Shown: positions 14,589 through 55,046 of the stretch, piece by piece | Layout: each line of letters opens with the position of its first letter | How positions within the stretch are numbered: position 1 is the first letter of the stretch | Virus genome (UHGV): UHGV-1366640 | Strand: one strand, 5' to 3' | Source of the DNA: a virus | DNA: 64,000 bases | Position numbers and translations under genes: made by a program | Notes under the pieces: generated by a model | Databases searched by the model: none | The model's input: only the letters and a program-made list of their open reading frames with translations | Told to the model about the DNA's origin: nothing

Positions 14589-14782
14589 AATGAAATTATG
14601 AAGATTTCTTTTGTATGTTGATGAGAACTCCCTTTTCAAGGATTTTGTTCAAATTGAATCAATTTATCAAGTTGAATGAATTTTATGAATATTTTGGGTA
14701 GATAATCATAGCATGCAATCTTTGATCAGGGTGTTCTTTATTCATTCATTCAAAAGGATAAATAAAGAAAGGATTGATAATT

Positions 14783-16089
14783 ATGGCAAGAACTCTTGCT
14801 GAATCTTATAATGGTGCTTCTGCTAAATTTGGTATAGGCACTTCTGCAAATGCACTTCTTAACAAATGGAACAAGGAAGTTTCGATCATCAATGAAGCTT
14901 TTAATGGAAAAGCAAATCCGGATAAAGTTCTTGGTACTGCTATTCTTCTTGAAAATACTGAAAGACACATTAGAAACTGTGCTACAAGAAATGCAATGTT
15001 CAGTGGTGTCCTCAATGAAGGTACGACTACAGCTGATGTTTCTTACTTCAAACAGTTTGCGTTCAACAACTTGATTGCAGTATATCCGAACCTGATTGCC
15101 CCTGAACTTGTTTCTTCTCAGCCGATGCTGTCAAGAGCTGGTTCTATCAGATACATTCGTGCTATCTATGGTAGCAATAAGGGTGGTATCAAGAAGGGTG
15201 ATACAATGTTTGGTCAGTATTCGCTTGGTGATCATCCTGCAGATGCTACATATTCCAGTGGCAGTGTTGAGGGTGAACTTCTTGGTACTGATGCTGCGAC
15301 TACGAATTTCAATCTCTCCTGGACTCCTGTAATTCCTGGAACTGTTGAAATCTTGTCGGGTGATGGTACTCTCACATATCGTGATGATTCCATTGGTGGT
15401 ATCGTATCTACAGCAGGTGCTGCTTCTGGTAGTATTGATTATGCAACTGGTAAGATCACATTCACTGCTGCTCCTGCTGCTGGATTCACTGCAAACTATG
15501 AATATGACAATGTTGATACTCTCCCGATTCAGGCTCCTGAGATTCAGGTTAAGATAGTTGAGACTCCTGTCTATGCAAAATCCAGAAAACTCAAAACTCT
15601 CTTCAGCTTTGATAGTGATGCTGACCTCTCGAATGATTTTGGTATTTCTCTTTCTGCAGAAATCCTTTCGATGAGTTCTGCACAGCTTAAGAGAGAAATC
15701 GATGATGAGATAATTATAGATCTTAGCACCAAGGGCACAGCTCCCGGGACTTCGTTTGATGCTACAGTTCCTGATGGTGTATCACTTGTTGATCACTATG
15801 CTGGTTTCCCAGCAGCTGTTGCAGTTGCATCGAATAACATCTGGAATGCTACTCAGGTTGGTAATGCATCGTGGATCATCGTTGGTCAGGATGCTGCTAA
15901 CATTGTTGAAGCTATTCCGAGATTCAAATCTTTGGGTGTAGTGAATCCGAAGGGATCTCATCTTGCTGGTTATCTTGGTAATCTTCCTGTGTATAAGTCT
16001 ACTGCTGTTGCAGCTGATGCATGGGTAGTTGGTTATAAAGGTGACAGTTTGTTTGAAGCTGGCTATATTTGGGCTCCCTATCTTCCTAT
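14783..16089 (+). CDS. major capsid protein, exon 1 (as read, the ORF continues to a TAA at 16106-16108 inside the intron)
   Basis: ATG 14783 after SD AAAGAAAGGA. 444-aa track ORF, hydrophilic and Gly/Ala/Thr-rich, follows the scaffold gene. Proposed 5' splice site after U16089. Confidence 0.55.
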
Positions 16090-17414
16090 TGAAAAACAAG
16101 TAGCTTAATTCACAATGAATTAAGAATCCCTCAGTGAACTCAGGGAAACTCCTAAAGCTCAATCTACCAAAGTCATACAGTGATGTGTGACTGGATGATC
16201 TAATCAATCATGTATGGTAACAAGGGTTGAGATGTTACAATGGACAATCCTGATCCAAGTCACTCTTTTGTCAGAGTGAAAGGAGCAACGACTATTAAGT
16301 AGAGCCAAATGGTACGGCAGTCTTGGAGAGCGTAAGTCCGTTTAATTCGAAGTGCTGATAATCATATGATATAGTCTGGTCTATCCAATACTTAATTGGT
16401 ACTGTTAGAGTTGTCAGTAGTCGAAAGACATAGATTGAATTAGTGAATTCTTATTTCCCAACATCCTCACATTGAAGGAGGTGAATGTAGTGTTAAAATA
16501 TCAGTGTCAACTGTGTGACAGATCTACTTTTAAGAACTGGAGAGATTTTGTTACACATTTACGACGACACAAGATCCGTAAGAAAGAGTATTTTGAGAGA
16601 TTTCCGTATATCTATCCAGAACCAGTTGGTGTTTATGGAGTTGACTATGTGACTTGTCCGATTTGTAATGATAATCGTGAATTTCAAAGTTTGACTCAAC
16701 ATTTGATAAATAAACATAAGATCTTAACTGAAGAGTTCTTAGTCAAGTTTCCAGGAAAGAAACTTTTCACAGAAAAGTATTCTAAGATGCGAGCTGATTT
16801 TTGTAGAAAAGGCTTGACAAAGAATTGGGCGGATCCTGAATATCGTAAAAAGAGATCAGAATACTGTTCAGAATTTTTCAGTAAAATTAATTCTGGCAGT
16901 AAGAGACCTGTTCAATCTGAAACAATGAAGAAGACTTTGAAACGATTGTGGAAAGATGAAGAATATTGTAAGAAGCAATCTGAACGAATGAAAGAAAGAC
17001 ACAAATCTGGGGAGCTTGAAAGACAAGTTCTTAATGGTTTCGGGAAGAAATGGATCAAGCATGAAACTTGGTATGGAAAGATAGCAACTCTTAAAAGTTC
17101 TTACGAAGTCTATGTTGCTAAATTTCTTGATGAAAATAAGATCATGTATGAATACGAAAAGATGTATGAGTATCATGACTCTTATTCAGACAGGGATAGA
17201 AAATATTATGCAGATTTCTATCTTCCAGATTATAATATTGTATTAGAAGTCAAAGCTTCTTGGGCAATAGATCGTTATCAAGTTCTAAGAGATAAGATGC
17301 TTGCAGTTTTAGAAACTGGTACACGATATAAATATGTCACTGAACGAGATTTGGGAAAACTCGTCAGCTTGAAAGAATTCGAAATGCTAATTCAGAGTAA
17401 CAATAACGAATGAG
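16090..17414 (+). mobile_element. group I self-splicing intron with embedded homing endonuclease ORF
   Basis: Core elements visible: P2 hairpin CUUAAUUCA-CAA-UGAAUUAAG (16104-16124); P4 CUCAGGGAAACUCC; GUAUGGUAACAAGG; GGACAAUCCUGAUCC; R-like AACGACUAUUAAGUAGAGCC; S-like GAUAUAGUCUGG. Proposed P1 pairs exon CUAU(16086-16089) with IGS AGUAG(16099-16103), including a U16089-G16100 wobble. G17414 would be the omega G. The splice is in-frame. Confidence 0.7.
16472..17413 (+). CDS. intron-encoded homing endonuclease: 2x C2H2 zinc finger + NUMOD-like repeats + PD-(D/E)XK nuclease
   Basis: Two C2H2 fingers (CQLCDRSTFKNWRDFVTHLRRH; CPICNDNREFQSLTQHLINKH). Lys/Arg-rich NUMOD3-like repeats (SETMKKTLKRLWKDEEYCKK...). 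C-terminal ADFYLPDYNIVLEVK is a PD-x6-E-V-K nuclease motif. The true start may be GTG 16490 after SD AAGGAGG. Confidence 0.55.
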   Translation: MKEVNVVLKYQCQLCDRSTFKNWRDFVTHLRRHKIRKKEYFERFPYIYPEPVGVYGVDYVTCPICNDNREFQSLTQHLINKHKILTEEFLVKFPGKKLFTEKYSKMRADFCRKGLTKNWADPEYRKKRSEYCSEFFSKINSGSKRPVQSETMKKTLKRLWKDEEYCKKQSERMKERHKSGELERQVLNGFGKKWIKHETWYGKIATLKSSYEVYVAKFLDENKIMYEYEKMYEYHDSYSDRDRKYYADFYLPDYNIVLEVKASWAIDRYQVLRDKMLAVLETGTRYKYVTERDLGKLVSLKEFEMLIQSNNNE

Positions 17415-17529
17415 TACACAACTTCTTATGGACGAAACCTTCACAGGTCGTCAAGGTTATTCGACCAGCTATGCAAAGAAGATGACAGCGTCAGACTTCT
17501 ATGCAACCAATACTATTACACATTCCTAA
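17415..17529 (+). CDS. major capsid protein, exon 2 (37 codons, unannotated)
   Basis: After the proposed splice, codon AT|T is restored (Ile) and the reading continues TQLLMDETFTGRQGYSTSYAKKMTASDFYATNTITHS to TAA 17527-17529. Too short to appear in the ORF track. Confidence 0.5.
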
Positions 17530-48183: not shown

Positions 48184-48290
48184 GGGGTAAAGGACTATCA
48201 TCCCGCAGCTGAAACAGTTGAAACAATGAAGAGTTGAAACAAACAAAACAAACAGCAAACAATGAAGAAAGGAGATCAGTAGAAAACAAA

Positions 48291-51200
48291 ATGTCAAACA
48301 AAACAAACAATGAAGAATATACAGTTGATTCAATTCAGGTACTTGATGACATTCAACACATCAGATTGAGAAAGGGAATGTACATAGGAGAAACATATGA
48401 TCCTCATCATCTCTTTTCAGAAGCATTTGATAATGCAATAGATGAAGCTCAATCTGGAAACAGTGATCTTACAATTATTAAGAAATTCAAAGATGAGAAC
48501 GGAAAATTACATTATTATGTGAGAGATCATGGTAGAGGAATTCCTATTGGCAAGATTCTCTATGGAGAGAAAGAAGTGGAAGCTCTTCAGATTCTCTTTA
48601 CAAAATGTAATTCAGGAGCGAAGTTCAGTTCTGACAATTATAGAATCTGTTCTGGAACTCATGGAGTTGGTGGTGTCTGTATCTGTGCTCTCTCAGAATG
48701 GATGAGAGTAACAACAATCAGAGATCACAGATCTGTTTCATTGGTCACAGAATTTGGAGAAGTAAAAGATCTCGTTTATTCAGATACAGATGAAGAAAAT
48801 GGAGTTGAAATTGAGTTCATACCAGATCCTTCTGAATTTGAATCTTCTGAGATCCCAGATTCCTTTATCATTGACAGATGTGAAGTTGCTCAGGCAATGG
48901 GATATCCAGTAGATCTTTTTATCAATGATAAGAAGATTGAAATTAAGATAAATTCTCTCTTGGATTTAATACATCTTCAACCAGATGTCACGGAATACTG
49001 TTCAGATGTGATCAAAGTCAAAGATGAATCAACAGGAGAATCTTTCATTGTAGGATTCAAATATACATCAGATACAAAATACAGAATCAATGGATATACG
49101 AATCTCCTTTATAATTCATATGGAGGAACTCATACAAGATGTACAATAGATGCTGTCACACAAGCTTGGTCAAAATATACAGAGGAGAGATCTCTTGTAT
49201 GGGATGATTGTCTTCTTGGAATGAAGATTGTTGTAGCAGCATTTATAGATAATATTGCTTTTTCATCACAGACGAAAGATAAGTTGACTGTGCCGAAATC
49301 TCAATTGAAAACATTGACAGATCTTCTCTCACTCAAATTTGAAGAGTGGATAGAGTCACATAAAGATCTCTGTACAAAATTGCTTGATAGATTTTCAGAG
49401 TATCGAGCAGCTCAAAGAAAATTGGAATCTCAAAAGGAGATTATGAATGTTGTACAGATCTCAAAGAAAGATAAGAGTGGTCGTCTTCGCAGAGGAAGTT
49501 CTGTTGTGTCATCGTTGATTGATTGTACTTCTCCTTCAAAAGAGGATACTGAGTTGTATATCTGTTTGGCAGGAGATACGAAAATCAAAATGCTCGATGG
49601 TACTTCTCCGACATTAGAAGAATTGACTGAAAGATATAAGGATCCTGATGAGGAATTTTGGGTGTATTCTTGTGATGATTCTGGAGAGTTCATTCCTGCA
49701 AAGGCTCATAATCCTCGACTGACAAGATATGTAGATGAGTTGTATGAGATTTCTCTGTCAGATGGTACAATTGTGAAATGTACAGGAAATCATAAATTTA
49801 TGAATAGAGAAACGATGGACTGGATAAGAACAGATGAAATGACAGTTGGTACATCATTACATCATCTAAGTTTTGGAAAAACTGCAGATGGTAGATGTAC
49901 GGTTTTTGTGAATAAAGATTCTTCATATAAAGAAGAGCCTGTTTACCGAATTATTGGTAATCTATTCTATAAAGAAGAGCATGATAGACTATTTAATAGA
50001 TTTCGGAGAACTGGCGATGTATTAGATCGTCCTCAGCTTCATCATAAGAATTGCAACAAATTTGATGATCGTCCTGAGAATATAGAATGTATTACTCAAC
50101 GAGAGCATTGGGATGGGTACAGGCACGGATCGTTAAGTAGCCAAAGGATTACTGATTACAATAGATCAGATTCTCATAAAAGAGATATGAAAATTGCATG
50201 GAGCAATCCTGAATTACGAAAAAGGATGTCAGTTGGAGGAAAGCATACTGATCTTTCTAAGCAGAAATTACATGATCTTGCAGTAGATCCGAATTCTCGG
50301 GTATGTGCAAAAACATGGTCAGAGACTTACAATAACTCTGAGAAACATCATATTGACTTAATTACAAGATTTGAAAGATTTCCGAATCTAAAAGAGAAGT
50401 ATTCTCAAAGAACTTCCGAGATGAATAAGAACCCTCAGATTAAGAGAAATCAGATGAGAGGAAGAATTGGTAAAATAATGAGAGCACTATTTGATAGAGG
50501 ATTGGAATTTTCTGAAGAGTCCTGGAATTTGGTAAATTCTCAGCTTCATCATTCAAGTGTTAAGTACTCAACAATTCTAAAATATTTTGATTCTTACGAA
50601 GAAGCATGTAAATTTGGTCAGAATTGGAATTATAAAGTTGTTTCTATCAAACGAATTTCCTCTCCTCATACTCCTGTATATTGTATGACAGTAGATTCGA
50701 CTCACAGATTTGCTTTAGAGAACGGACTTATCAGCAAAAATTGTGAGGGGTTGTCGGCTTCGGGTTCTATAGCAAGACCTCGCAATAAGGAATTTCAGGC
50801 AGTTCTTCCTCTTCGTGGAAAGATAAAGAATATTGCAGGATATTCTCTCAAAGATGCTTTGAAGTTTGAAACAGTTGCGAATATTGTTAATTCAATTGGA
50901 TGTGGTATCGGAGAATCAGCTGATCCAGAGAAGTCAAGATATGAGAAGATTATTATCTCTGCCGACAAGGATTCAGATGGATCGCATATAGTAGCTCTTG
51001 TTCTTACAGCAATTGTGAATCTCCTTCCATCAATCGTCAAGGCAGGAATGGTTTATATCTTAGATGCTCCTTTCTATAAGTATTGGACAAAAGATGGAAA
51101 ACATCACTATACAAGTGATTTCAATGAGGTTCCTCAGTGGAGTTTTGATAATCACAAGTTTCTCAGATTCAAGGGTCTTGGTTCTATGGATGATTCAGAC

Positions 51201-51386
51201 TTCAAAGATGCTTGTCTGAATGCTGAGAATAGAGTTTTATTTCAAGTTGAATATCCTGATGATCTTGAGAGATTCAATCATCTTGCTGGTACATCTGCTG
51301 GTAGGAATGAATTGTTATCACACTATGGTGTCATAAGATCAATATCAGATTTAGAAGAGGATGAATCTGTAGATGAAGACTCCTAA
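48291..51386 (+). CDS. type II topoisomerase large (GyrB/gp39-like ATPase+TOPRIM) subunit, containing an intein
   Basis: ATPase motif GTHGVGGVCICALSEW. TOPRIM extein ...TELYI|(intein)|CEGLSASGS...EFQAVLPLRGKIKNI matches GyrB ELYLVEGDSAGGS...KFQAILPLRGKILNV. ATG 48291 is the likely start; the track gives TTG 48234. Confidence 0.7.
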   Translation: MSNKTNNEEYTVDSIQVLDDIQHIRLRKGMYIGETYDPHHLFSEAFDNAIDEAQSGNSDLTIIKKFKDENGKLHYYVRDHGRGIPIGKILYGEKEVEALQILFTKCNSGAKFSSDNYRICSGTHGVGGVCICALSEWMRVTTIRDHRSVSLVTEFGEVKDLVYSDTDEENGVEIEFIPDPSEFESSEIPDSFIIDRCEVAQAMGYPVDLFINDKKIEIKINSLLDLIHLQPDVTEYCSDVIKVKDESTGESFIVGFKYTSDTKYRINGYTNLLYNSYGGTHTRCTIDAVTQAWSKYTEERSLVWDDCLLGMKIVVAAFIDNIAFSSQTKDKLTVPKSQLKTLTDLLSLKFEEWIESHKDLCTKLLDRFSEYRAAQRKLESQKEIMNVVQISKKDKSGRLRRGSSVVSSLIDCTSPSKEDTELYICLAGDTKIKMLDGTSPTLEELTERYKDPDEEFWVYSCDDSGEFIPAKAHNPRLTRYVDELYEISLSDGTIVKCTGNHKFMNRETMDWIRTDEMTVGTSLHHLSFGKTADGRCTVFVNKDSSYKEEPVYRIIGNLFYKEEHDRLFNRFRRTGDVLDRPQLHHKNCNKFDDRPENIECITQREHWDGYRHGSLSSQRITDYNRSDSHKRDMKIAWSNPELRKRMSVGGKHTDLSKQKLHDLAVDPNSRVCAKTWSETYNNSEKHHIDLITRFERFPNLKEKYSQRTSEMNKNPQIKRNQMRGRIGKIMRALFDRGLEFSEESWNLVNSQLHHSSVKYSTILKYFDSYEEACKFGQNWNYKVVSIKRISSPHTPVYCMTVDSTHRFALENGLISKNCEGLSASGSIARPRNKEFQAVLPLRGKIKNIAGYSLKDALKFETVANIVNSIGCGIGESADPEKSRYEKIIISADKDSDGSHIVALVLTAIVNLLPSIVKAGMVYILDAPFYKYWTKDGKHHYTSDFNEVPQWSFDNHKFLRFKGLGSMDDSDFKDACLNAENRVLFQVEYPDDLERFNHLAGTSAGRNELLSHYGVIRSISDLEEDESVDEDS
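49563..50741 (+). other. intein (393 aa) with HNH endonuclease domain
   Basis: N-terminal CLAGDTKIKMLDG (Hint block A), internal HNH LHHKNCNKFDDRPENIECITQREH, C-terminal VYCMTVDSTHRFALENGLISKN followed by +1 Cys. Removing it restores a colinear GyrB TOPRIM motif. Confidence 0.7.
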
Positions 51387-51723
51387 TTTTCATTATGGTC
51401 AAGTATGGCTCGTTCAGGATCAATCAAAAATTAGGCATGGTTCAATTCAACAGAAGATGAGACCGATGATCATAATTTCCAATGAGAAGAATAACATTTA
51501 TTCACCGATACTCAATGTTATTCCTCTCACTGGTTCAAGAGATCTTCCTCGAGGATCATATCAAATTCAATATTATCTTGGACTTCGTCAAACTCCAATT
51601 ACTGTATTGTGTGAACAGATTACGACGATCAGCAAAGAGGACTGTGTCAGATATCTTTATACATTGAGTGACGATATCTTGACAGAAGTTCAAAGGGCAT
51701 TAAGGATCCAATTATCTCTATAG
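51373..51723 (+). CDS. MazF/PemK (Kid)-family toxin-like protein, no adjacent antitoxin
   Basis: GQVWLVQDQSK..HGSIQQKMRPMIIIS...PILNVIPLTG and VLCEQITTISKEDC align by eye with Kid/PemK (GEIWLVSLDPTAGHEQQGTRPVLIVT...VVPVTSG; VRCDQPRTIDMKAR). Overlaps the topoisomerase stop by 14 nt. Confidence 0.5.
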   Translation: MKTPNFHYGQVWLVQDQSKIRHGSIQQKMRPMIIISNEKNNIYSPILNVIPLTGSRDLPRGSYQIQYYLGLRQTPITVLCEQITTISKEDCVRYLYTLSDDILTEVQRALRIQLSL

Positions 51724-51742: not shown

Positions 51743-52801
51743 ATGCAGAATCGACGAAATGATATACCATATCTTGGGTGCAACAATATTGAGGGCATTA
51801 AGAATCCAAAAGATCCTGGAATATTGCAAGATAGATTAGAAATTTTATACCATTTTATCACAGAAAGATATAAGATTTGGTTAAGAAGAAATGCTGGTCA
51901 AAAGAGACCTTGGACTGATGATGAAATTCTTAGAGATTTCAGTTTTACGAATATCCGAAGAGAACAAGACAGGACAAGTCGCTGGCTGATAGAGCATATT
52001 TCGGAGAATGATGATCTATCAATTGCTGAGAAATTTTGGCAGACCATTATTTTTAGATTATATAATAAGATAGAGACAGCTGAATTGTTCAAACTTGGTT
52101 CGGGTTTTGACTGGGATTTTGAGAGAATTGAAGAAGCAAGATCTAAATCTGACATGAGATATTTATTTACAACAGCGTACTTTACATCAGGTTGCAGAGC
52201 AGCTTGGAATAGGAGATATCCAGATATTTCAAGATCATCACATCTTTCTACTCTTAAAGGAATCATTGATTATAGAAACGATTTTGATTATTCTGGTTTT
52301 GATTCTCCTATTAGATACCTTGATGACAAATACTACTGGAATGAAGATCTTCATGCAGATGATGTTGTTAATTGGCTTCTCAAAATTCCAGGATGTAAGT
52401 GGTTTATGGCTTATCAGTTATTCGTAGATCTTACATACATTCCATCTTTTCCAATTTCTGAGAATGAATATGTTGTTGCTGGTTCAGGATGCAGAACTGG
52501 TATCTGGTATTTGACTGAAACTTCAAAGTGGAAAGAAAATATGGTAGGAGATCTTAAATACTGGGAGTTTCTCTTTTGGTTAAGAGATCATCTTGAAGAT
52601 CTCTTCAGAGAGAGAGTTGATCCTAATTTCTCCTGTGATAAATTGTTTATAGATCTTCCATCAGAAGAAAGACATTTTAATGTTATGAGTCTTGAAAATG
52701 TCTTCTGTGAATTTTCAAAGTACATGAAATTGAAAGAAATGAAAGAAACAGGAAAGAAATGTCGAATAAGAAAATATTATGGTTCTGAGAGTATTCTATA
52801 A
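51743..52801 (+). CDS. hypothetical protein (352 aa) within the topoisomerase cluster
   Basis: Conserved-looking block KRPWTDDEILRDFSFTNIRREQDRTSRWL; no family assigned with confidence. Confidence 0.4.
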   Translation: MQNRRNDIPYLGCNNIEGIKNPKDPGILQDRLEILYHFITERYKIWLRRNAGQKRPWTDDEILRDFSFTNIRREQDRTSRWLIEHISENDDLSIAEKFWQTIIFRLYNKIETAELFKLGSGFDWDFERIEEARSKSDMRYLFTTAYFTSGCRAAWNRRYPDISRSSHLSTLKGIIDYRNDFDYSGFDSPIRYLDDKYYWNEDLHADDVVNWLLKIPGCKWFMAYQLFVDLTYIPSFPISENEYVVAGSGCRTGIWYLTETSKWKENMVGDLKYWEFLFWLRDHLEDLFRERVDPNFSCDKLFIDLPSEERHFNVMSLENVFCEFSKYMKLKEMKETGKKCRIRKYYGSESIL

Positions 52802-52849: not shown

Positions 52850-53200
52850 ATGCTGCAAGATTATAATACTGAACAGGAGAATCTCAAAATTGTTTCAAAG
52901 GATGATTTACACATTGGAGATCTTTGTAAGTATGCGTATTCAAGGACAGGCTCAGTCAAATGGCTGTATGGGAGAATTTTTGAAATCTATCCGAGATTTG
53001 TAAGAGTGAATCTCGAATCATATACAGATACTTTGAATTTTGATGCAAAGGGATTTCTAAGATCTGCTGGTACAGATTTTATAAAATTGGTTGAAATTGT
53101 CTCAAATGAAACAGGAGCTGTGCTTTATTCCGATTATGAACATAAAGATCATTTTCGATTAATTGATTTGCATGAGGAGGATAAGAATGCAGAATCCTAA
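52850..53200 (+). CDS. hypothetical protein
   Basis: 116-aa ORF. Confidence 0.35.
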   Translation: MLQDYNTEQENLKIVSKDDLHIGDLCKYAYSRTGSVKWLYGRIFEIYPRFVRVNLESYTDTLNFDAKGFLRSAGTDFIKLVEIVSNETGAVLYSDYEHKDHFRLIDLHEEDKNAES

Positions 53201-55046
53201 ATTGAAAGATTCAAATGAGATAATTGCAGAATCTTATGTTGAAATTGCAAAATATGTTGCAAAGACTCGAGCTTATTGTTCAATGATTGATGGCTTCAAA
53301 ACCGTATATCGTAGGATGCTCTTTGCTTCAAAAGATATCAAGGGAAAGAATAAGGCAACAGAATTTATTGCGAGAACGATGAAATATCATCCACATGGAG
53401 AAGCATCAGATGTTCTTGTATCAATGACTTGCCAATATGGAAGACTTCCTTTGTATAAGGGATATGGAAATTTTGGCGGATGTGGGTTTGGAGCAGCAAA
53501 TCCAAGATATCTTTCTGCAGAATTGAATGAGATTGCTAAATTGATGTATTTAGATCTGGTCGATTATGCAGATTATATGGAAGGTGATGCTGGTGAAATG
53601 GAACCTGAGTATCTTCCTTCTCTTATTCCATATGCTTTAATAACAGGATCTTTTGGCATGACTGTTGGGCTTCCTACCCCGGAGATTCCGTCTTTTAATC
53701 TCATGGATCTTATAGATTTCTTCAAAAAGAAACTTCTTGGAGAGACAATAAATCATTATCCAAGAATAGATGTGGGAGATGCTTATATTCTCCAGGATGA
53801 GAAAGATTTGTCTCCTCTGTACAAAGATGGTTGGCAGAGAGTTGAATTTCAAACATTGTATGATTTTACGAATGACACAATGTCAATAAGAGATTTTCCT
53901 CCTGGATGTCGTCATTGGAAATTTCACAGTAAGAAGTTACAGTCACTCATTGATCAAGATCTACTTGAGTATACAGATTCTACTGATGAATCTGGCGTCT
54001 GTTATGAATATAAGATTCTTAATCCTTCAAAATTCTCAATTGATGACTTGAAGTCTCTTGCTAAGAACTGGGTGAAATCTGTGCAAACATATAGATTATA
54101 TTTTGAACATTATTCATCTGTATATTTATCTTCACTGGACAAGATTGCAGAAGAGTCTTTGAAATATCTTAGGAAATGTGCAATACGAAAATTTGAAGCT
54201 GATATAAAATCTCAGTCATTCAAGATTTCTCTATTTCAAGCAATTGAGAAATTGAAGTCTTCCAAAGAAATCAAACAGATTTCTAAAAAGAGTACAGATT
54301 ATTTCAAGTCGCTCATACAGGAATGGGGATTTAGTGAAGAAGTTGCGAATTCCGTTATGACAAAATCTATTTCCTACTTAACAAATTCACATGATAAGGA
54401 ATATGAATCCCTTCTTAAAACATATGAGTACTCTTGTAAAATGTCAAAGGATCCTACTGAGTATTTATCACAGAAGTATGATGAGTTGAAGAGTCTCGTG
54501 GTTGATCTTTATAATTCAAGGAAGCATTCTGTATATAAATCTGAAGTCACAGATTTGTCAGATCTTGGTTTCTATTTCGATGAAAAATCTTCTGATATTG
54601 TTTTTGGAGTGAAAAGTAAGAAATTCAAGGATTTTGGTTCTTCCATTATTGTTGTATATCCTGACAATACAGGATATATTCAGTCAGTATCTTCTGCAAG
54701 ACCAAATTCTCGAATTCATATTCCTGTTAATTCGTCAGGATTGAAAGCAAGATGTTGTATAGGATGTTTTGATAACTCTAAATATCTTATAGTTCAAAAT
54801 TATAGAGATAGAATTTCAGTTATTCCTATTGAGAAGATGCAGTATACAGAAACAAAATTGTGCAAATCTTGGGATGAAGATTCGTTTGTAACAGCAGTAG
54901 TTACTTCGTTAGAAGATGTTAAATTTATTTCTCAGAAGGGAAGAGAATATACAGCTCACTGTGAAGATTTTGTCAGATCAAGGATTTCTTATGCTGATAG
55001 AATTTTCTCAAGAGGAAATGAGATTTCAAAAATAGAATATCTATAA
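53187..55046 (+). CDS. type II topoisomerase GyrA/gp52-like subunit
   Basis: HPHGEASDVLVSMTCQYGRLPLYKGYGNFGG resembles GyrA HPHGDSAVYDTIVRMAQ...GQGNFGS. ATG 53187 after TGAGGAGG. Confidence 0.6.
   Translation: MQNPKLKDSNEIIAESYVEIAKYVAKTRAYCSMIDGFKTVYRRMLFASKDIKGKNKATEFIARTMKYHPHGEASDVLVSMTCQYGRLPLYKGYGNFGGCGFGAANPRYLSAELNEIAKLMYLDLVDYADYMEGDAGEMEPEYLPSLIPYALITGSFGMTVGLPTPEIPSFNLMDLIDFFKKKLLGETINHYPRIDVGDAYILQDEKDLSPLYKDGWQRVEFQTLYDFTNDTMSIRDFPPGCRHWKFHSKKLQSLIDQDLLEYTDSTDESGVCYEYKILNPSKFSIDDLKSLAKNWVKSVQTYRLYFEHYSSVYLSSLDKIAEESLKYLRKCAIRKFEADIKSQSFKISLFQAIEKLKSSKEIKQISKKSTDYFKSLIQEWGFSEEVANSVMTKSISYLTNSHDKEYESLLKTYEYSCKMSKDPTEYLSQKYDELKSLVVDLYNSRKHSVYKSEVTDLSDLGFYFDEKSSDIVFGVKSKKFKDFGSSIIVVYPDNTGYIQSVSSARPNSRIHIPVNSSGLKARCCIGCFDNSKYLIVQNYRDRISVIPIEKMQYTETKLCKSWDEDSFVTAVVTSLEDVKFISQKGREYTAHCEDFVRSRISYADRIFSRGNEISKIEYL

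What the first reader, a model, noticed from the sequence alone, without database searches (positions are those of the whole stretch)
49563..50741. HNH-type intein inside the GyrB-like topoisomerase II subunit, at the TOPRIM ELYL-VEGDSAGGS motif
A 393-aa insertion begins CLAGDTKIKMLDG, ends ...HRFALENGLISKN and is followed by Cys. Removing it joins TELYI to CEGLSASGS...EFQAVLPLRGKIKNI, colinear with the GyrB motif. The intein carries an HNH motif (LHHKNCNKFDDRPENIECITQREH) plus NUMOD-like repeats rather than LAGLIDADG. Its penultimate residue is Lys, not the usual His. Together with the capsid intron, this genome holds two different self-splicing invaders in essential genes.
Basis: partly seen in the sequence, partly recalled or inferred. 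Interest (0 to 1): 0.7.

Follow-up and report, generated by a model that had tools for sequence, protein, structure and literature searches.

The report
HNH intein in phage topoisomerase II
A phage topoisomerase gene is interrupted, one codon before its catalytic glutamate, by a 393-residue self-splicing protein element (an intein) that carries an HNH nuclease; this is a real but fairly ordinary new member of a known class, with two unusual active-site residues.

Summary
Window 49563-50741 encodes a 393-aa in-frame insertion (CLAGDTKIKM...ENGLISKN) followed by Cys, inside a GyrB-like topoisomerase II large subunit, between TELYI and CEGLSASGS.

A sister phage (exteins 93% identical in DNA) has the same intein with the nuclease module cleanly deleted. 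Another pair of related phages shows scar-free, reciprocal presence and absence of inteins at two sites.

The middle module is an HNH nuclease plus helical repeats. It runs colinear with the classical cyanobacterial Ssp GyrB HNH intein, which sits 7 residues downstream. The "NUMOD-like" label has no Pfam support.

Penultimate Lys is already reported in phage inteins. Less expected, block F position 4 is Cys rather than Asp. Across about 250 related inteins, penultimate Lys never co-occurs with Asp at that position. The class 3 (WCT) signature is not met.

Verdict: new member of a known kind, moderate interest. Splicing and nuclease activity are inferred, not shown.

The parts
48291..49562 (+). 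N-extein of the phage topoisomerase II large (GyrB-like) subunit, 424 aa from ATG 48291 (alternative TTG 48234). It holds the GHKL ATPase, the transducer (DNA_gyraseB) and the first TOPRIM strand, ending ...TELYI.
   Evidence: Pfam HATPase_c and DNA_gyraseB; NCBIfam gyrB/parE models; PHROG 543 'DNA topoisomerase II large subunit', 388 bits. Start from P0001 and homologue N-termini.
49563..50741 (+). Intein, 393 aa, 46.2 kDa: Cys1 ... Lys392-Asn393.
   Evidence: No insert at this site in the 102 homologues shorter than 700 aa.
49563..49871 (+). Hint N-terminal splicing half (blocks A and B): Cys1, Thr74-x-x-His77, Phe79 at B:12.
   Evidence: TIGR01445 39.9 bits over residues 1-80. pLDDT 86-96. 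Kept at 97% aa identity in the sister phage's mini-intein.
49872..50630 (+). Endonuclease and DNA-binding insert: a beta hairpin region, the HNH core, helical repeats (YN-x-S-x-x-H motif twice) and a C-terminal helical bundle ending NWNYK.
50025..50117 (+). HNH catalytic core, residues 155-185: His160-His161, Asn173, His182. Asp168-Asp169 sit where most relatives have Asn.
   Evidence: Pfam HNH_3 22.8-23.7 bits, just under the 24.8 cut-off. 9 of 10 family members match HNH_3, best E 2.1e-9. H161, P171 and H182 are invariant; H160 and N173 are >=90% conserved in alignment A1.
50631..50741 (+). Hint C-terminal splicing half (blocks F and G): VYC374MTVDSTH381RFALENGLIS391-K392-N393.
   Evidence: Pfam Intein_splicing runs to profile position 155/155 at residue 393. 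It aligns to Npu DnaE ...VYDIGVERDHNFALKNGFIASN. pLDDT is about 88-93.
50742..50744 (+). +1 Cys codon (TGT), the C-extein nucleophile. It occupies the position that is Val in most insert-free homologues, immediately before the TOPRIM catalytic Glu.
   Evidence: Residue at this position among 102 insert-free homologues: V 75, C 14, T 6, F 3, L 2, I 1, A 1.
50742..51386 (+). C-extein, 214 aa plus stop: the rest of TOPRIM (CEGLSASGS...DKDSDG) and the GyrB C-terminal domain.
   Evidence: Pfam Toprim starts at profile position 5 directly after the intein. DNA_gyraseB_C scores 27.5 bits.
53163..55046 (+). Context: the partner GyrA/ParC-like subunit of the same topoisomerase II.
   Evidence: Pfam DNA_topoisoIV 146.8 bits.

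Best explanation
The segment is a bifunctional intein. It has a class-1-type Hint splicing domain with an HNH homing-endonuclease/DNA-binding module inserted between blocks B and F. It sits in the large (GyrB-like) subunit of a phage type II topoisomerase, one residue before the TOPRIM catalytic Glu.

Inferred mechanism:
1. The gene is translated into a 118-kDa precursor whose TOPRIM fold is split, so it is presumably inactive.
2. Cys1 undergoes an N-S acyl shift, assisted by Thr74 and His77.
3. Cys+1 attacks the thioester.
4. Asn393 cyclises, assisted by block F His381 and/or Lys392 in place of the usual penultimate His.
5. An S-N shift then joins TELYI to CEGLSASGS. The products are the 72-kDa enzyme subunit and a free 46-kDa intein.

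The free intein, or the precursor, would act as an HNH endonuclease on intein-less alleles of the same gene during co-infection. Repair from the intein-containing copy would then spread the element (homing).

What is shown here: the identity, fold, exact boundaries, catalytic residues, absence from most homologues, separability of the nuclease module, and scar-free gain/loss among relatives. What is inferred: actual splicing, nuclease activity and present-day mobility.
For: Family and fold:
- Pfam Intein_splicing 55.8 bits (cut-off 35.8) and TIGR01445 39.9 bits (cut-off 24.5).
- A PDB profile search hits Npu DnaE at 1.7e-11.

Catalytic set present: Cys1, Thr74-x-x-His77, His381, Asn393, Cys+1.

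Population evidence:
- Of the 120 best extein homologues, 102 are shorter than 700 aa and align through the site with no insert.
- Seven have an intein at exactly this site. Six other sites in the same protein family also hold inteins.
- Seven further GyrB-like proteins end ...ITHN|CEGDSA at this site.

Modularity: sister phage L001 has the same intein with residues ~101-356 replaced by a 13-aa linker. Its Hint halves are kept at 95-97% identity.

Scar-free mobility: P0010 (intein here only) and P0014 (intein at the DxD site only) have colinear 1884-nt exteins, 93.1% identical, with 18/628 aa differences.

Selection: dN/dS is 0.04-0.12 in both the exteins and the retained intein parts.

Signs of lateral spread:
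- The retained intein DNA is less diverged than the exteins: 2.7% against 6.8%, Fisher p 0.0012.
- Hint identity to P0010 is 77-79%, against 57% for the exteins.
- Mismatches cluster at the site in P0010 against P0014: 12 per 100 nt, against 1 in the preceding 200 nt.

HNH module: H160, H161, N173 and H182 are conserved. HNH_3 matches 9 of 10 relatives. The intein is colinear with the 435-aa Ssp GyrB-type HNH intein, E 1e-16.
Against: - No experiment. Splicing and nuclease activity are inferred from sequence.
- Two assisting residues are non-canonical: block F:4 is Cys374 rather than Asp, and the penultimate residue is Lys392 rather than His.
- The Pfam HNH_3 score of this copy (22.8-23.7 bits) is just below the curated cut-off (24.8). 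Asp168-Asp169 replace the Asn found at that position in most relatives.
- The sister phage has lost the nuclease module, so the nuclease is dispensable and could already be inactive here.
- No near-identical intein-less allele of this particular phage was found. The closest intein-free homologue is 56% identical. Current homing therefore cannot be shown for this lineage.
- The lower divergence of the intein is a modest signal. No clear co-conversion tract appears next to the intein in the window-against-L001 comparison.
Confidence: 0.85

Rival explanations
1. Splicing-competent but no longer mobile. The intein still splices, which the essential gene requires, but its HNH module is inactive or decaying. 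The element would then be in the late phase of the homing cycle, fixed in this lineage and inherited only vertically.
For: - HNH_3 is just under Pfam's cut-off in this copy.
- Asp-Asp sits where most relatives have Asn at residues 168-169.
- The helical DNA-binding part has low model confidence, pLDDT 42-76 over residues 186-300.
- The sister phage has already deleted the whole module. Mini-inteins at the same site occur in P0006 and P0080.
- No intein-less near-identical allele was found for it to invade.
Against: - The 253-residue module keeps an open frame.
- The conserved HNH positions H160, H161, N173 and H182 are intact.
- Asp169 is shared with P0010 and P0015 (59-61% identical inteins), so it looks like a conserved clade variant rather than decay.
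- Intein DNA is less diverged than extein DNA between the sister phages. Hint identity exceeds extein identity across lineages. Both point to fairly recent lateral movement.
Confidence: 0.35
2. Non-canonical or conditional splicing. The block F Cys374, together with Cys1 and Cys+1, would give the intein either a class-3-like second nucleophile (a class 1/class 3 hybrid) or a redox switch (a disulfide that holds the precursor). Topoisomerase maturation would then be gated by conditions in the infected cell.
For: - F:4 is Cys, the obligate nucleophile position of class 3 inteins (PMC2807308).
- Same-site relatives (P0070, P0080, P0121, P0124 and others) also carry Thr at G:5, giving x-C-T plus HN.
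- A phage origin has been proposed for class 3 inteins (ref. 38 as cited in PMC5050341). Cys-based redox control of intein splicing is documented (PMC6195587).
- Penultimate Lys never co-occurs with F:4 Asp: 0 of 154 against 25 of 95. This suggests a re-wired active site.
Against: - Cys1 and the class 1 Thr-x-x-His block B are intact.
- B:12 is Phe, not Trp. None of the 51 F:4-Cys inteins sampled has Trp there, and 50 of 51 start with Cys1.
- Grafting W, C and T onto a class 1 intein did not produce class 3 splicing (PMC7664689).
- Nothing in the sequence demonstrates a disulfide.
Confidence: 0.1
3. Dead insertion. The intein can no longer splice because of Lys392 and Cys374, and the interrupted topoisomerase gene is a pseudogene or yields an inactive fusion.
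For: Two assisting residues are non-canonical.
Against: - The whole 1031-codon frame is open.
- dN/dS is 0.04-0.06 in both exteins and 0-0.12 in the retained intein parts against the sister phage.
- The same SKN|C ending with F:4 Cys is kept in five lineages whose exteins are only 56-57% identical.
- Inteins without a penultimate His splice well: the RDF intein with Gly (PMC5050341), and Npu DnaE, which ends ASN.
- The partner subunit gene is intact.
Confidence: 0.03
4. Not an intein but a lineage-specific structural domain of the enzyme. This is the refutation case the first reader proposed.
For: None found.
Against: - 102 of the 120 best homologues have no insert at this site.
- Close relatives differ by exact in-frame presence or absence.
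- The segment has the Hint fold and every splice-junction residue.
Confidence: 0.01

Closest known systems
Ssp GyrB-type intein: the classical HNH-containing intein of cyanobacterial, Chloroflexi and archaeal DNA gyrase subunit B. [quoted passage not shown] 1997 (cited in bioRxiv 10.1101/2025.01.02.630785); that this first case was the Synechocystis GyrB intein is my own recollection. [quoted passage not shown]
   Same: - Same host protein family and the same TOPRIM motif.
- Same architecture over the full length: Hint-N, HNH (HHKDFNKRNNNPDNL...EH), helical repeats, a helical bundle ending NYNH(R/K)(I/V)V, then Hint-C.
- Pairwise BLASTP E 1e-16 and colinear over residues 1-393 against 1-435.
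- Both occur as full-length and mini forms: 143-443 aa in 80 cellular loci.
   Different: - Only 22% identical.
- Insertion point is VEGDSAGG|C...HN|SAKQGRDR, which is 7 residues downstream of the site here (TELYI|C...KN|CEGLSASGS).
- +1 is Ser rather than Cys, block F:4 is Asp rather than Cys, and the penultimate residue is His rather than Lys.
- Cellular gyrase rather than a phage topoisomerase II.
Phage class 1 inteins with non-canonical penultimate residues (mycobacteriophage inteins; Kelley et al. 2016, PMC5050341).
   Same: - A phage-encoded class 1 intein at the active centre of a nucleic-acid enzyme.
- The penultimate His is replaced. That paper lists Gly, Lys and Ser. It shows that a Gly-containing intein splices fully and is slowed by restoring His.
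   Different: Those inteins carry LAGLIDADG endonucleases and sit in other proteins (TerL, RDF, RecB-like, a TOPRIM primase/topoisomerase). The link between penultimate Lys and a non-Asp block F:4 seen here does not appear in the passages I read.
I-HmuI and the HNH_3 family of phage homing endonucleases (PDB 1u3e).
   Different: I-HmuI is intron-encoded and free-standing as a protein, and is a nicking enzyme. Here the module is embedded in a Hint domain. No activity data exist.
Other mobile elements that target the TOPRIM region of phage topoisomerase II large subunits: the T4 MobA / gene 60 bypass element, and a VSR-endonuclease intein in a metagenomic Topo2L (bioRxiv 10.1101/2022.08.31.505936).
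   Same: Same host gene family and domain, invaded by a homing-endonuclease element. The MobA element also carries an HNH enzyme.
   Different: MobA splits the gene into two ORFs and relies on translational bypassing and added tails, not protein splicing. It inserts at the metal-binding region further downstream. The reported intein there has a VSR nuclease, not HNH.
Class 3 inteins (WCT motif; MP-Be DnaB, Msm/Mch DnaB1; PMC2807308, PMC7664689).
   Same: Cys at block F position 4. Phage association. Close same-site relatives also carry Thr at G:5.
   Different: This intein has Cys1 and the intact Thr-x-x-His block B. B:12 is Phe rather than Trp, G:5 is Ser, and +1 is Cys. It does not meet the class 3 definition.

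Membership tests
Intein (class 1, canonical protein-splicing element) | Hint/HINT splicing domain (blocks A, B, F, G) recognisable by sequence and by fold | tested here: met
Intein (class 1, canonical protein-splicing element) | Nucleophile (Cys/Ser/Thr) as first intein residue | tested here: met
   Cys1, codon 49563-49565. Invariant in alignment A1.
Intein (class 1, canonical protein-splicing element) | Block B Thr-x-x-His | tested here: met
   Thr74 and His77, invariant in A1.
Intein (class 1, canonical protein-splicing element) | C-terminal Asn followed by a Cys/Ser/Thr +1 extein residue | tested here: met
   Asn393 | Cys+1 (TGT, 50742-50744).
Intein (class 1, canonical protein-splicing element) | Penultimate His (block G:6). 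Usual, but not obligatory. | tested here: not met
   Lys392. This is known variation: phage class 1 inteins with Gly, Lys or Ser (PMC5050341), and Npu DnaE ending ASN. In about 270 related inteins: H 220, K 28, S 17.
Intein (class 1, canonical protein-splicing element) | Block F position 4 Asp. Usual in standard inteins (PMC2807308). | tested here: not met
   Cys374 in VYCMTV. Cys is found in about 20% of the related inteins sampled, nearly all of which start with Cys1.
Intein (class 1, canonical protein-splicing element) | In-frame insertion at a conserved site of a host protein, absent from orthologues, whose removal restores the host motif | tested here: met
   102 homologues shorter than 700 aa align through the site with no insert. 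Removal gives TELYI-CEGLSASGS, colinear with (T/S)ELxx(V/C)EG(D/N)SA. Scar-free presence/absence in P0010 against P0014.
Intein (class 1, canonical protein-splicing element) | Demonstrated protein splicing (ligated exteins plus free intein) | not testable with these tools
   Needs expression and SDS-PAGE/MS. Predicted masses: 118.2 kDa precursor, giving 72.0 and 46.2 kDa products.
Class 3 inteins | No N-terminal nucleophile | tested here: not met
   Cys1 is present.
Class 3 inteins | WCT triplet: Trp B:12, Cys F:4, Thr G:5 (PMC2807308, PMC5050341) | tested here: not met
   Phe79, Cys374, Ser391: only the Cys matches. None of the 51 F:4-Cys relatives has Trp at B:12.
HNH homing endonuclease (Pfam HNH_3 / I-HmuI-like) | HNH (beta-beta-alpha-metal) motif with conserved His, Asn and His | tested here: inconclusive
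HNH homing endonuclease (Pfam HNH_3 / I-HmuI-like) | Site-specific cleavage of the intein-less allele, and homing | not testable with these tools
   Only indirect signs: presence/absence polymorphism, Hint more conserved than exteins, and lower intein divergence.
   No NUMOD family was listed for this intein's endonuclease insert at E<=10 or for any of 10 family members at E<=1. HMMER's filters drop most matches above about 0.1. A weak two-copy internal repeat exists; 22 of 1000 shuffles reach its score.
Ssp GyrB intein allele (classical GyrB insertion site) | Insertion between EGDSAGG and SAKQGR | tested here: not met
   79 of the 80 cellular loci (the 80th has no upstream sequence) have ...EG(D/E/N)SA(G/S/A)G|C, and the 74 with a located C-terminal junction all read ...HN|S. 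The window's intein lies 7 residues upstream, before the Glu. Family members at that classical site do exist in phage homologues (P0008).
Bacterial intein-like (BIL) / pretoxin-HINT domains | Hint domain in a variable, non-essential protein, usually without a +1 nucleophile, giving cleavage rather than ligation | tested here: not met
   The host is a conserved essential-type enzyme. The insertion is inside a catalytic motif. Asn393 and Cys+1 are present. PT-HINT is not among the hits for this copy.

The most novel reading that the evidence does not exclude
The intein and its same-site relatives form a natural, widespread group of phage inteins. They keep the class 1 apparatus (Cys1, Thr-x-x-His) but also carry the class 3 block F cysteine. 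Many relatives also have the class 3 Thr at G:5; this copy has Ser plus a penultimate Lys, which never co-occurs with the standard block F Asp.

[quoted passage not shown] Alternatively, they could use the three active-site cysteines as a redox gate on topoisomerase maturation during infection.
Probability: 0.1. Interest if true: 0.6.

Novelty: new member of a known kind. Interest (0 to 1): 0.35.

Why it matters
Taken alone, this is one more intein in a replication enzyme, and HNH inteins in GyrB have been known since 1997. The context gives it modest value.

1. The phage topoisomerase II large-subunit family is an unusually dense intein "hot spot". At least seven insertion points were seen, four of them within 10 codons of the TOPRIM EGDSAGG motif. 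Some single proteins carry two or three inteins. Close relatives show reciprocal, scar-free gain and loss. That makes it a good natural system for studying the homing cycle and site shifting.

2. The full-length intein and its natural mini derivative in a 93%-identical phage are a ready-made pair for engineering a small Cys1/Cys+1 intein.

3. The strict avoidance between penultimate Lys and block F Asp, together with the frequent block F Cys in Cys1 inteins, is a testable clue about how assisting residues are re-wired. It may also bear on how class 3 inteins arose.

4. For annotation: the gene is labelled only "DNA gyrase/topoisomerase IV subunit B" by its one named source. The intein is not flagged there.

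Tried and rejected
- **Word-indexed protein search with the intein alone.** It returned nothing, although the identical sequence is inside P0001. This is a tool limitation, not a biological result. The exhaustive HMMER search found 3072 relatives.
- **Megablast of the gene against deposited phage genomes.** No match. There is no close cultured relative.
- **tblastn of the intein against deposited phages.** Only 5 records, none in a topoisomerase gene. tblastn of the splice-junction region showed the closest isolates uninterrupted there (Bacillus HSE3, Listeria LIS04, SP-15, Streptococcus GXN1). I found no annotated phage with an intein at this site, though distant cases could be missed.
- **The search for related loci with the intein alignment in cellular genomes.** Nothing confirmed. 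A second scan used the Ssp GyrB intein sequence recalled from memory. It worked and gave the classical-site comparison.
- **Class 3 hypothesis.** Rejected as a membership claim, since W and T of WCT are absent and Cys1 is present. It is kept only as a low-probability mechanistic variant.
- **NUMOD label.** Rejected for lack of any Pfam hit.
- **Base composition.** No GC or skew break at the intein borders, so composition says nothing about a recent foreign origin.
- **Rfam at gathering threshold on the whole window.** Nothing. An RNA-level (intron) explanation for this insertion is also excluded by the open frame and the Hint domain.
- **MAFFT of the whole P0010 and P0014 genes.** It misaligned the two different inteins. 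I redid the comparison after excising them.
- **Active-site geometry in the AF2 model.** Not inspected, because model coordinates are not exposed to scripts.
Full report
**1. The observation**

The ORF 48234-51386 (+) encodes 1050 aa from TTG. From ATG 48291 it encodes 1031 aa, which is the start used by the identical database protein P0001 and the one that fits homologue N-termini. Window 49563-50741 translates to 393 residues, CLAGDTKIKM...HRFALENGLISKN. Base composition shows no break at the borders.

**2. The host protein**

The flanks match HATPase_c, DNA_gyraseB, Toprim and DNA_gyraseB_C in Pfam. They also match the NCBIfam gyrB and parE models, and PHROG 543 "DNA topoisomerase II large subunit" at 388 bits.

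The Pfam Toprim match resumes at profile position 5 directly after the insertion. The insertion therefore cuts the first TOPRIM strand, one residue before the catalytic Glu of the EGDSAGG motif (EGLSASG here). A GyrA/ParC-like partner gene lies at 53163-55046.

The closest cultured relatives of the enzyme come from Bacillus phage vB_BceM-HSE3, Listeria phage LIS04, Bacillus phage SP-15 and Streptococcus phage vB_SagM-GXN1. All are uninterrupted at this junction. There is no close DNA relative among deposited phage genomes. The same contig (98 kb) is present in ENA and IMG metagenomes. The only name a source gives the protein is "DNA gyrase/topoisomerase IV subunit B".

**3. It is an intein**

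- Pfam Intein_splicing scores 55.8 bits against a cut-off of 35.8, spanning residues 10-393 of the insert with the nuclease module looped out. TIGR01445 (intein N-terminal region) scores 39.9 bits against 24.5.
- A profile built from ten homologous inteins hits solved inteins, with Npu DnaE at 1.7e-11.
- The splice-site residues are all present: Cys1, Thr74-x-x-His77 (block B), His381 (block F), Asn393 and Cys+1.

**4. Comparative evidence**

I searched with the spliced extein. Of the 120 best hits, 102 are shorter than 700 aa and align straight through the site. The +1 position in these is Val in 75, Cys in 14 and Thr in 6.

The other 18 hits are longer. Seven carry an intein at exactly this site (P0001, P0002, P0006, P0010, P0015, P0070, P0080). 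Six further sites in the same protein family are also occupied:
- after EGK;
- after EGDSA;
- after EGDSAAG;
- before DADPDG;
- after the DxD motif (DADDDG);
- in the GHKL domain before GLHGVG.

An exhaustive HMMER search with the intein found 3072 relatives, 1335 of them at E<=1e-10. Among them are seven more GyrB-like proteins ending ...ITHN|CEGDSA at this same site. One protein (P0121) carries three inteins.

Two comparisons are especially informative.

*(a) The sister phage.* Sister phage L001 has exteins 93-94% identical in DNA. It has the same intein, but window 49865-50630 (intein residues ~101-356) is replaced by a 13-residue linker. This leaves a 148-aa mini-intein whose Hint halves are 95-97% identical to those here. 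The nuclease module is therefore separable and dispensable for whatever keeps the gene functional.

*(b) P0010 against P0014.* These have colinear 1884-nt exteins, 93.1% identical, with 18 of 628 residues different. P0010 has an intein only at this site. P0014 has one only at the DxD site. Each empty site keeps the Cys that would serve as +1. This is precise, scar-free, reciprocal presence and absence, which is what a mobile element removed at the protein level should look like.

**5. Signs of selection and lateral movement**

Against the sister phage, dN/dS is 0.04-0.06 in the exteins and 0-0.12 in the retained intein parts. Both are therefore under purifying selection.

The retained intein DNA is less diverged than the exteins: 11/405 against 129/1893 mismatches, Fisher p 0.0012, and dS about 0.1 against 0.3. 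Across more distant lineages the Hint halves are more similar than the host enzyme, at 77-79% against 57% for P0010.

In P0010 against P0014, mismatches pile up in the 100 nt around this site (12, all seven within the 36 nt at the junction being synonymous). There is only one in the preceding 200 nt.

All of this fits homing with co-conversion and/or target-site escape. None of it proves that the copy in the window is still mobile. No near-identical intein-less allele of this phage was found.

**6. The inserted module**

Pfam HNH_3 scores 22.8-23.7 bits for this copy, just under the 24.8 cut-off. It matches 9 of 10 homologous inteins, down to E 2.1e-9. His161 and His182 are invariant, and His160 and Asn173 are at least 90% conserved. 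Asp168-Asp169 replace the Asn that most relatives have. Asp169 is shared by P0010 and P0015, so it looks like a clade variant rather than decay.

After the HNH core come helices with a weakly repeated YN-x-S-x-x-H motif. Its score is reached by 22 of 1000 shuffles. A helical bundle ending NWNYK follows. No Pfam NUMOD model matches any family member, so that label is unsupported.

**7. The closest known relative**

I recalled the Ssp GyrB intein sequence from memory and used it only as a probe. It retrieved 317 loci in cellular genomes: cyanobacteria, Chloroflexi, Acidobacteria, candidate phyla radiation (CPR) bacteria, DPANN archaea and Methanoperedens.

In 79 of the 80 loci examined (the 80th has no upstream sequence) the N-terminal junction is ...EG(D/E/N)SA(G/S/A)G|C. 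In the 74 with a located C-terminal junction the intein ends ...HN|S, usually followed by AKQGRDR. Lengths run from 143 to 443 aa, with the mode at 435 aa carrying HNH. Block F:4 is Asp in every tail inspected.

The window's intein is colinear with such a 435-aa intein over its full length (22% identity, E 1e-16). This includes the HNH core and the NYNH(K/R) element before block F.

This is therefore a distant member of the same HNH-intein architecture. It sits in the same motif of the same enzyme family, but 7 residues upstream and with Cys rather than Ser at +1. GyrB inteins are a recognised group: 33 bacterial cases in PMC4760082, and one gyrB allele spanning domains in PMC4071816. In-frame HNH inteins are described as rare but known (bioRxiv 10.1101/2025.01.02.630785). 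The TOPRIM region of phage Topo2L is also the target of the T4 MobA/gene 60 element and of a VSR-type intein (bioRxiv 10.1101/2022.08.31.505936).

**8. The unusual residues**

Penultimate Lys is not new. Kelley et al. (PMC5050341) report Gly, Lys and Ser at this position in phage class 1 inteins. They show that a Gly-bearing intein splices completely, and they note that a block F His can take over the role; His381 is present here. Npu DnaE ends ASN.

That position is "usually Asp" in standard inteins and Cys in class 3 (WCT) inteins (PMC2807308).

I tabulated these positions in about 250 non-redundant related inteins from the hit lists.
- Penultimate residue: His 220, Lys 28, Ser 17.
- Lys occurs in 0 of 154 inteins with Asp at F:4, and in 25 of 95 with another residue there (Cys, Thr, Ser, Gly, Asn). 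Fisher p is 3.7e-12, not corrected for phylogeny, and block F was parsed by regular expression.
- Of 51 inteins with Cys at F:4, 50 start with Cys1 and 40 have Cys+1. None has Trp at B:12, and 15 have Thr at G:5 with His at G:6.

The window's intein reads Phe79 / Cys374 / Ser391 at the WCT positions and has Cys1. It therefore fails the class 3 definition and is best filed as class 1 with a re-wired set of assisting residues. Whether Cys374 acts as a second nucleophile or a redox partner is open. An attempt to graft WCT onto a class 1 intein failed (PMC7664689), which argues against an easy hybrid.

**9. Mechanism, with its status**

Shown by sequence and comparison: the boundaries, fold, catalytic residues, modularity, and polymorphic, scar-free distribution.

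Inferred from the established class 1 pathway:
1. N-S shift at Cys1.
2. Trans-thioesterification to Cys+1.
3. Asn393 cyclisation, assisted by His381 and/or Lys392.
4. S-N shift, giving a 72.0-kDa subunit and a 46.2-kDa intein from a 118.2-kDa precursor.

Also inferred: the precursor is inactive because TOPRIM is split, and the HNH module cuts or nicks intein-less alleles during co-infection.

**10. Verdict**

It is a new member of a known kind, at an insertion point I did not find described. It belongs to a rich, previously unannotated population of inteins in phage topoisomerase II genes. The block F Cys / penultimate Lys pairing is the one feature that could interest intein specialists. I score interest at 0.35.

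Noticed in passing
window 14774-17529: The major head protein ORF (14774-16108) matches PHROG 138 only over profile positions 3-381 of 444. A full-length but sub-threshold group I intron hit (RF00028, 35.6 bits against gathering 50, E 6.4e-7) lies at 16078-16398. It is followed by an endonuclease-like ORF (16472-17413) and a short ORF (17410-17529) that could be the missing capsid C-terminus.
   Followed up: partly
window 51373-51723: A PemK/MazF-like toxin gene (Pfam 60.5 bits) overlaps the last 14 nt of the topoisomerase gene. The same gene is present in sister phage L001 and near the topoisomerase gene of the P0014 phage (L004). No antitoxin was looked for.
   Followed up: no
window 51743-52801: A 5-hmdU DNA kinase (Pfam HMUDK_hel, 180.7 bits) sits between the two topoisomerase subunit genes. 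The phage probably hypermodifies thymidine, like its relative SP-15. One relative of the intein (P0169) sits in an amino-acid:DNA transferase (ADDT) of the same pathway.
   Followed up: no
related proteins P0121-P0267: Across about 250 related inteins, penultimate Lys never co-occurs with Asp at block F:4 (0/154 against 25/95). Cys at F:4 goes with Cys1 (50/51) and mostly with Cys+1 (40/51). The test is not phylogenetically corrected.
   Followed up: partly
L003:1492-4560 against L004:1501-3819: Two phage topoisomerase genes with 97% identical exteins carry inteins at different sites (P0010 before the TOPRIM Glu, P0014 after DxD). Cys is retained at both empty sites. Synonymous differences cluster at the empty or occupied site: 12 mismatches per 100 nt against 1 per 200 nt upstream.
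   Followed up: yes
proteins P0121, P0006, P0122: Some relatives carry several inteins. P0121 is a GyrB-like protein of 1562 aa with three inteins, and P0006 has two. P0122 (3009 aa) has ten matched stretches to the intein query. The phage Topo II family has at least seven distinct insertion points.
   Followed up: partly
window 48234-48293: The start codon is ambiguous. IMG calls TTG 48234 (1050 aa). ENA and Logan call ATG 48291 (1031 aa), which has an AAGGAG-like sequence about 15 nt upstream and matches homologue N-termini (MSN...).
   Followed up: partly
L005 (Streptococcus phage vB_SagM-GXN1 34974-35627) and L006 (Bacillus phage SP-15 12642-13772, SP15_022 'hypothetical protein'): Deposited phage genomes contain unannotated relatives of this HNH intein in other genes: 34% identity over 227 aa, and 25% over the full length. 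In SP-15 the host ORF is labelled only as hypothetical.
   Followed up: no
tool behaviour: The word-indexed protein search with the intein alone returned no hit, even though the identical sequence is part of database protein P0001. Negative results from that tool for embedded domains should not be trusted.
   Followed up: yes
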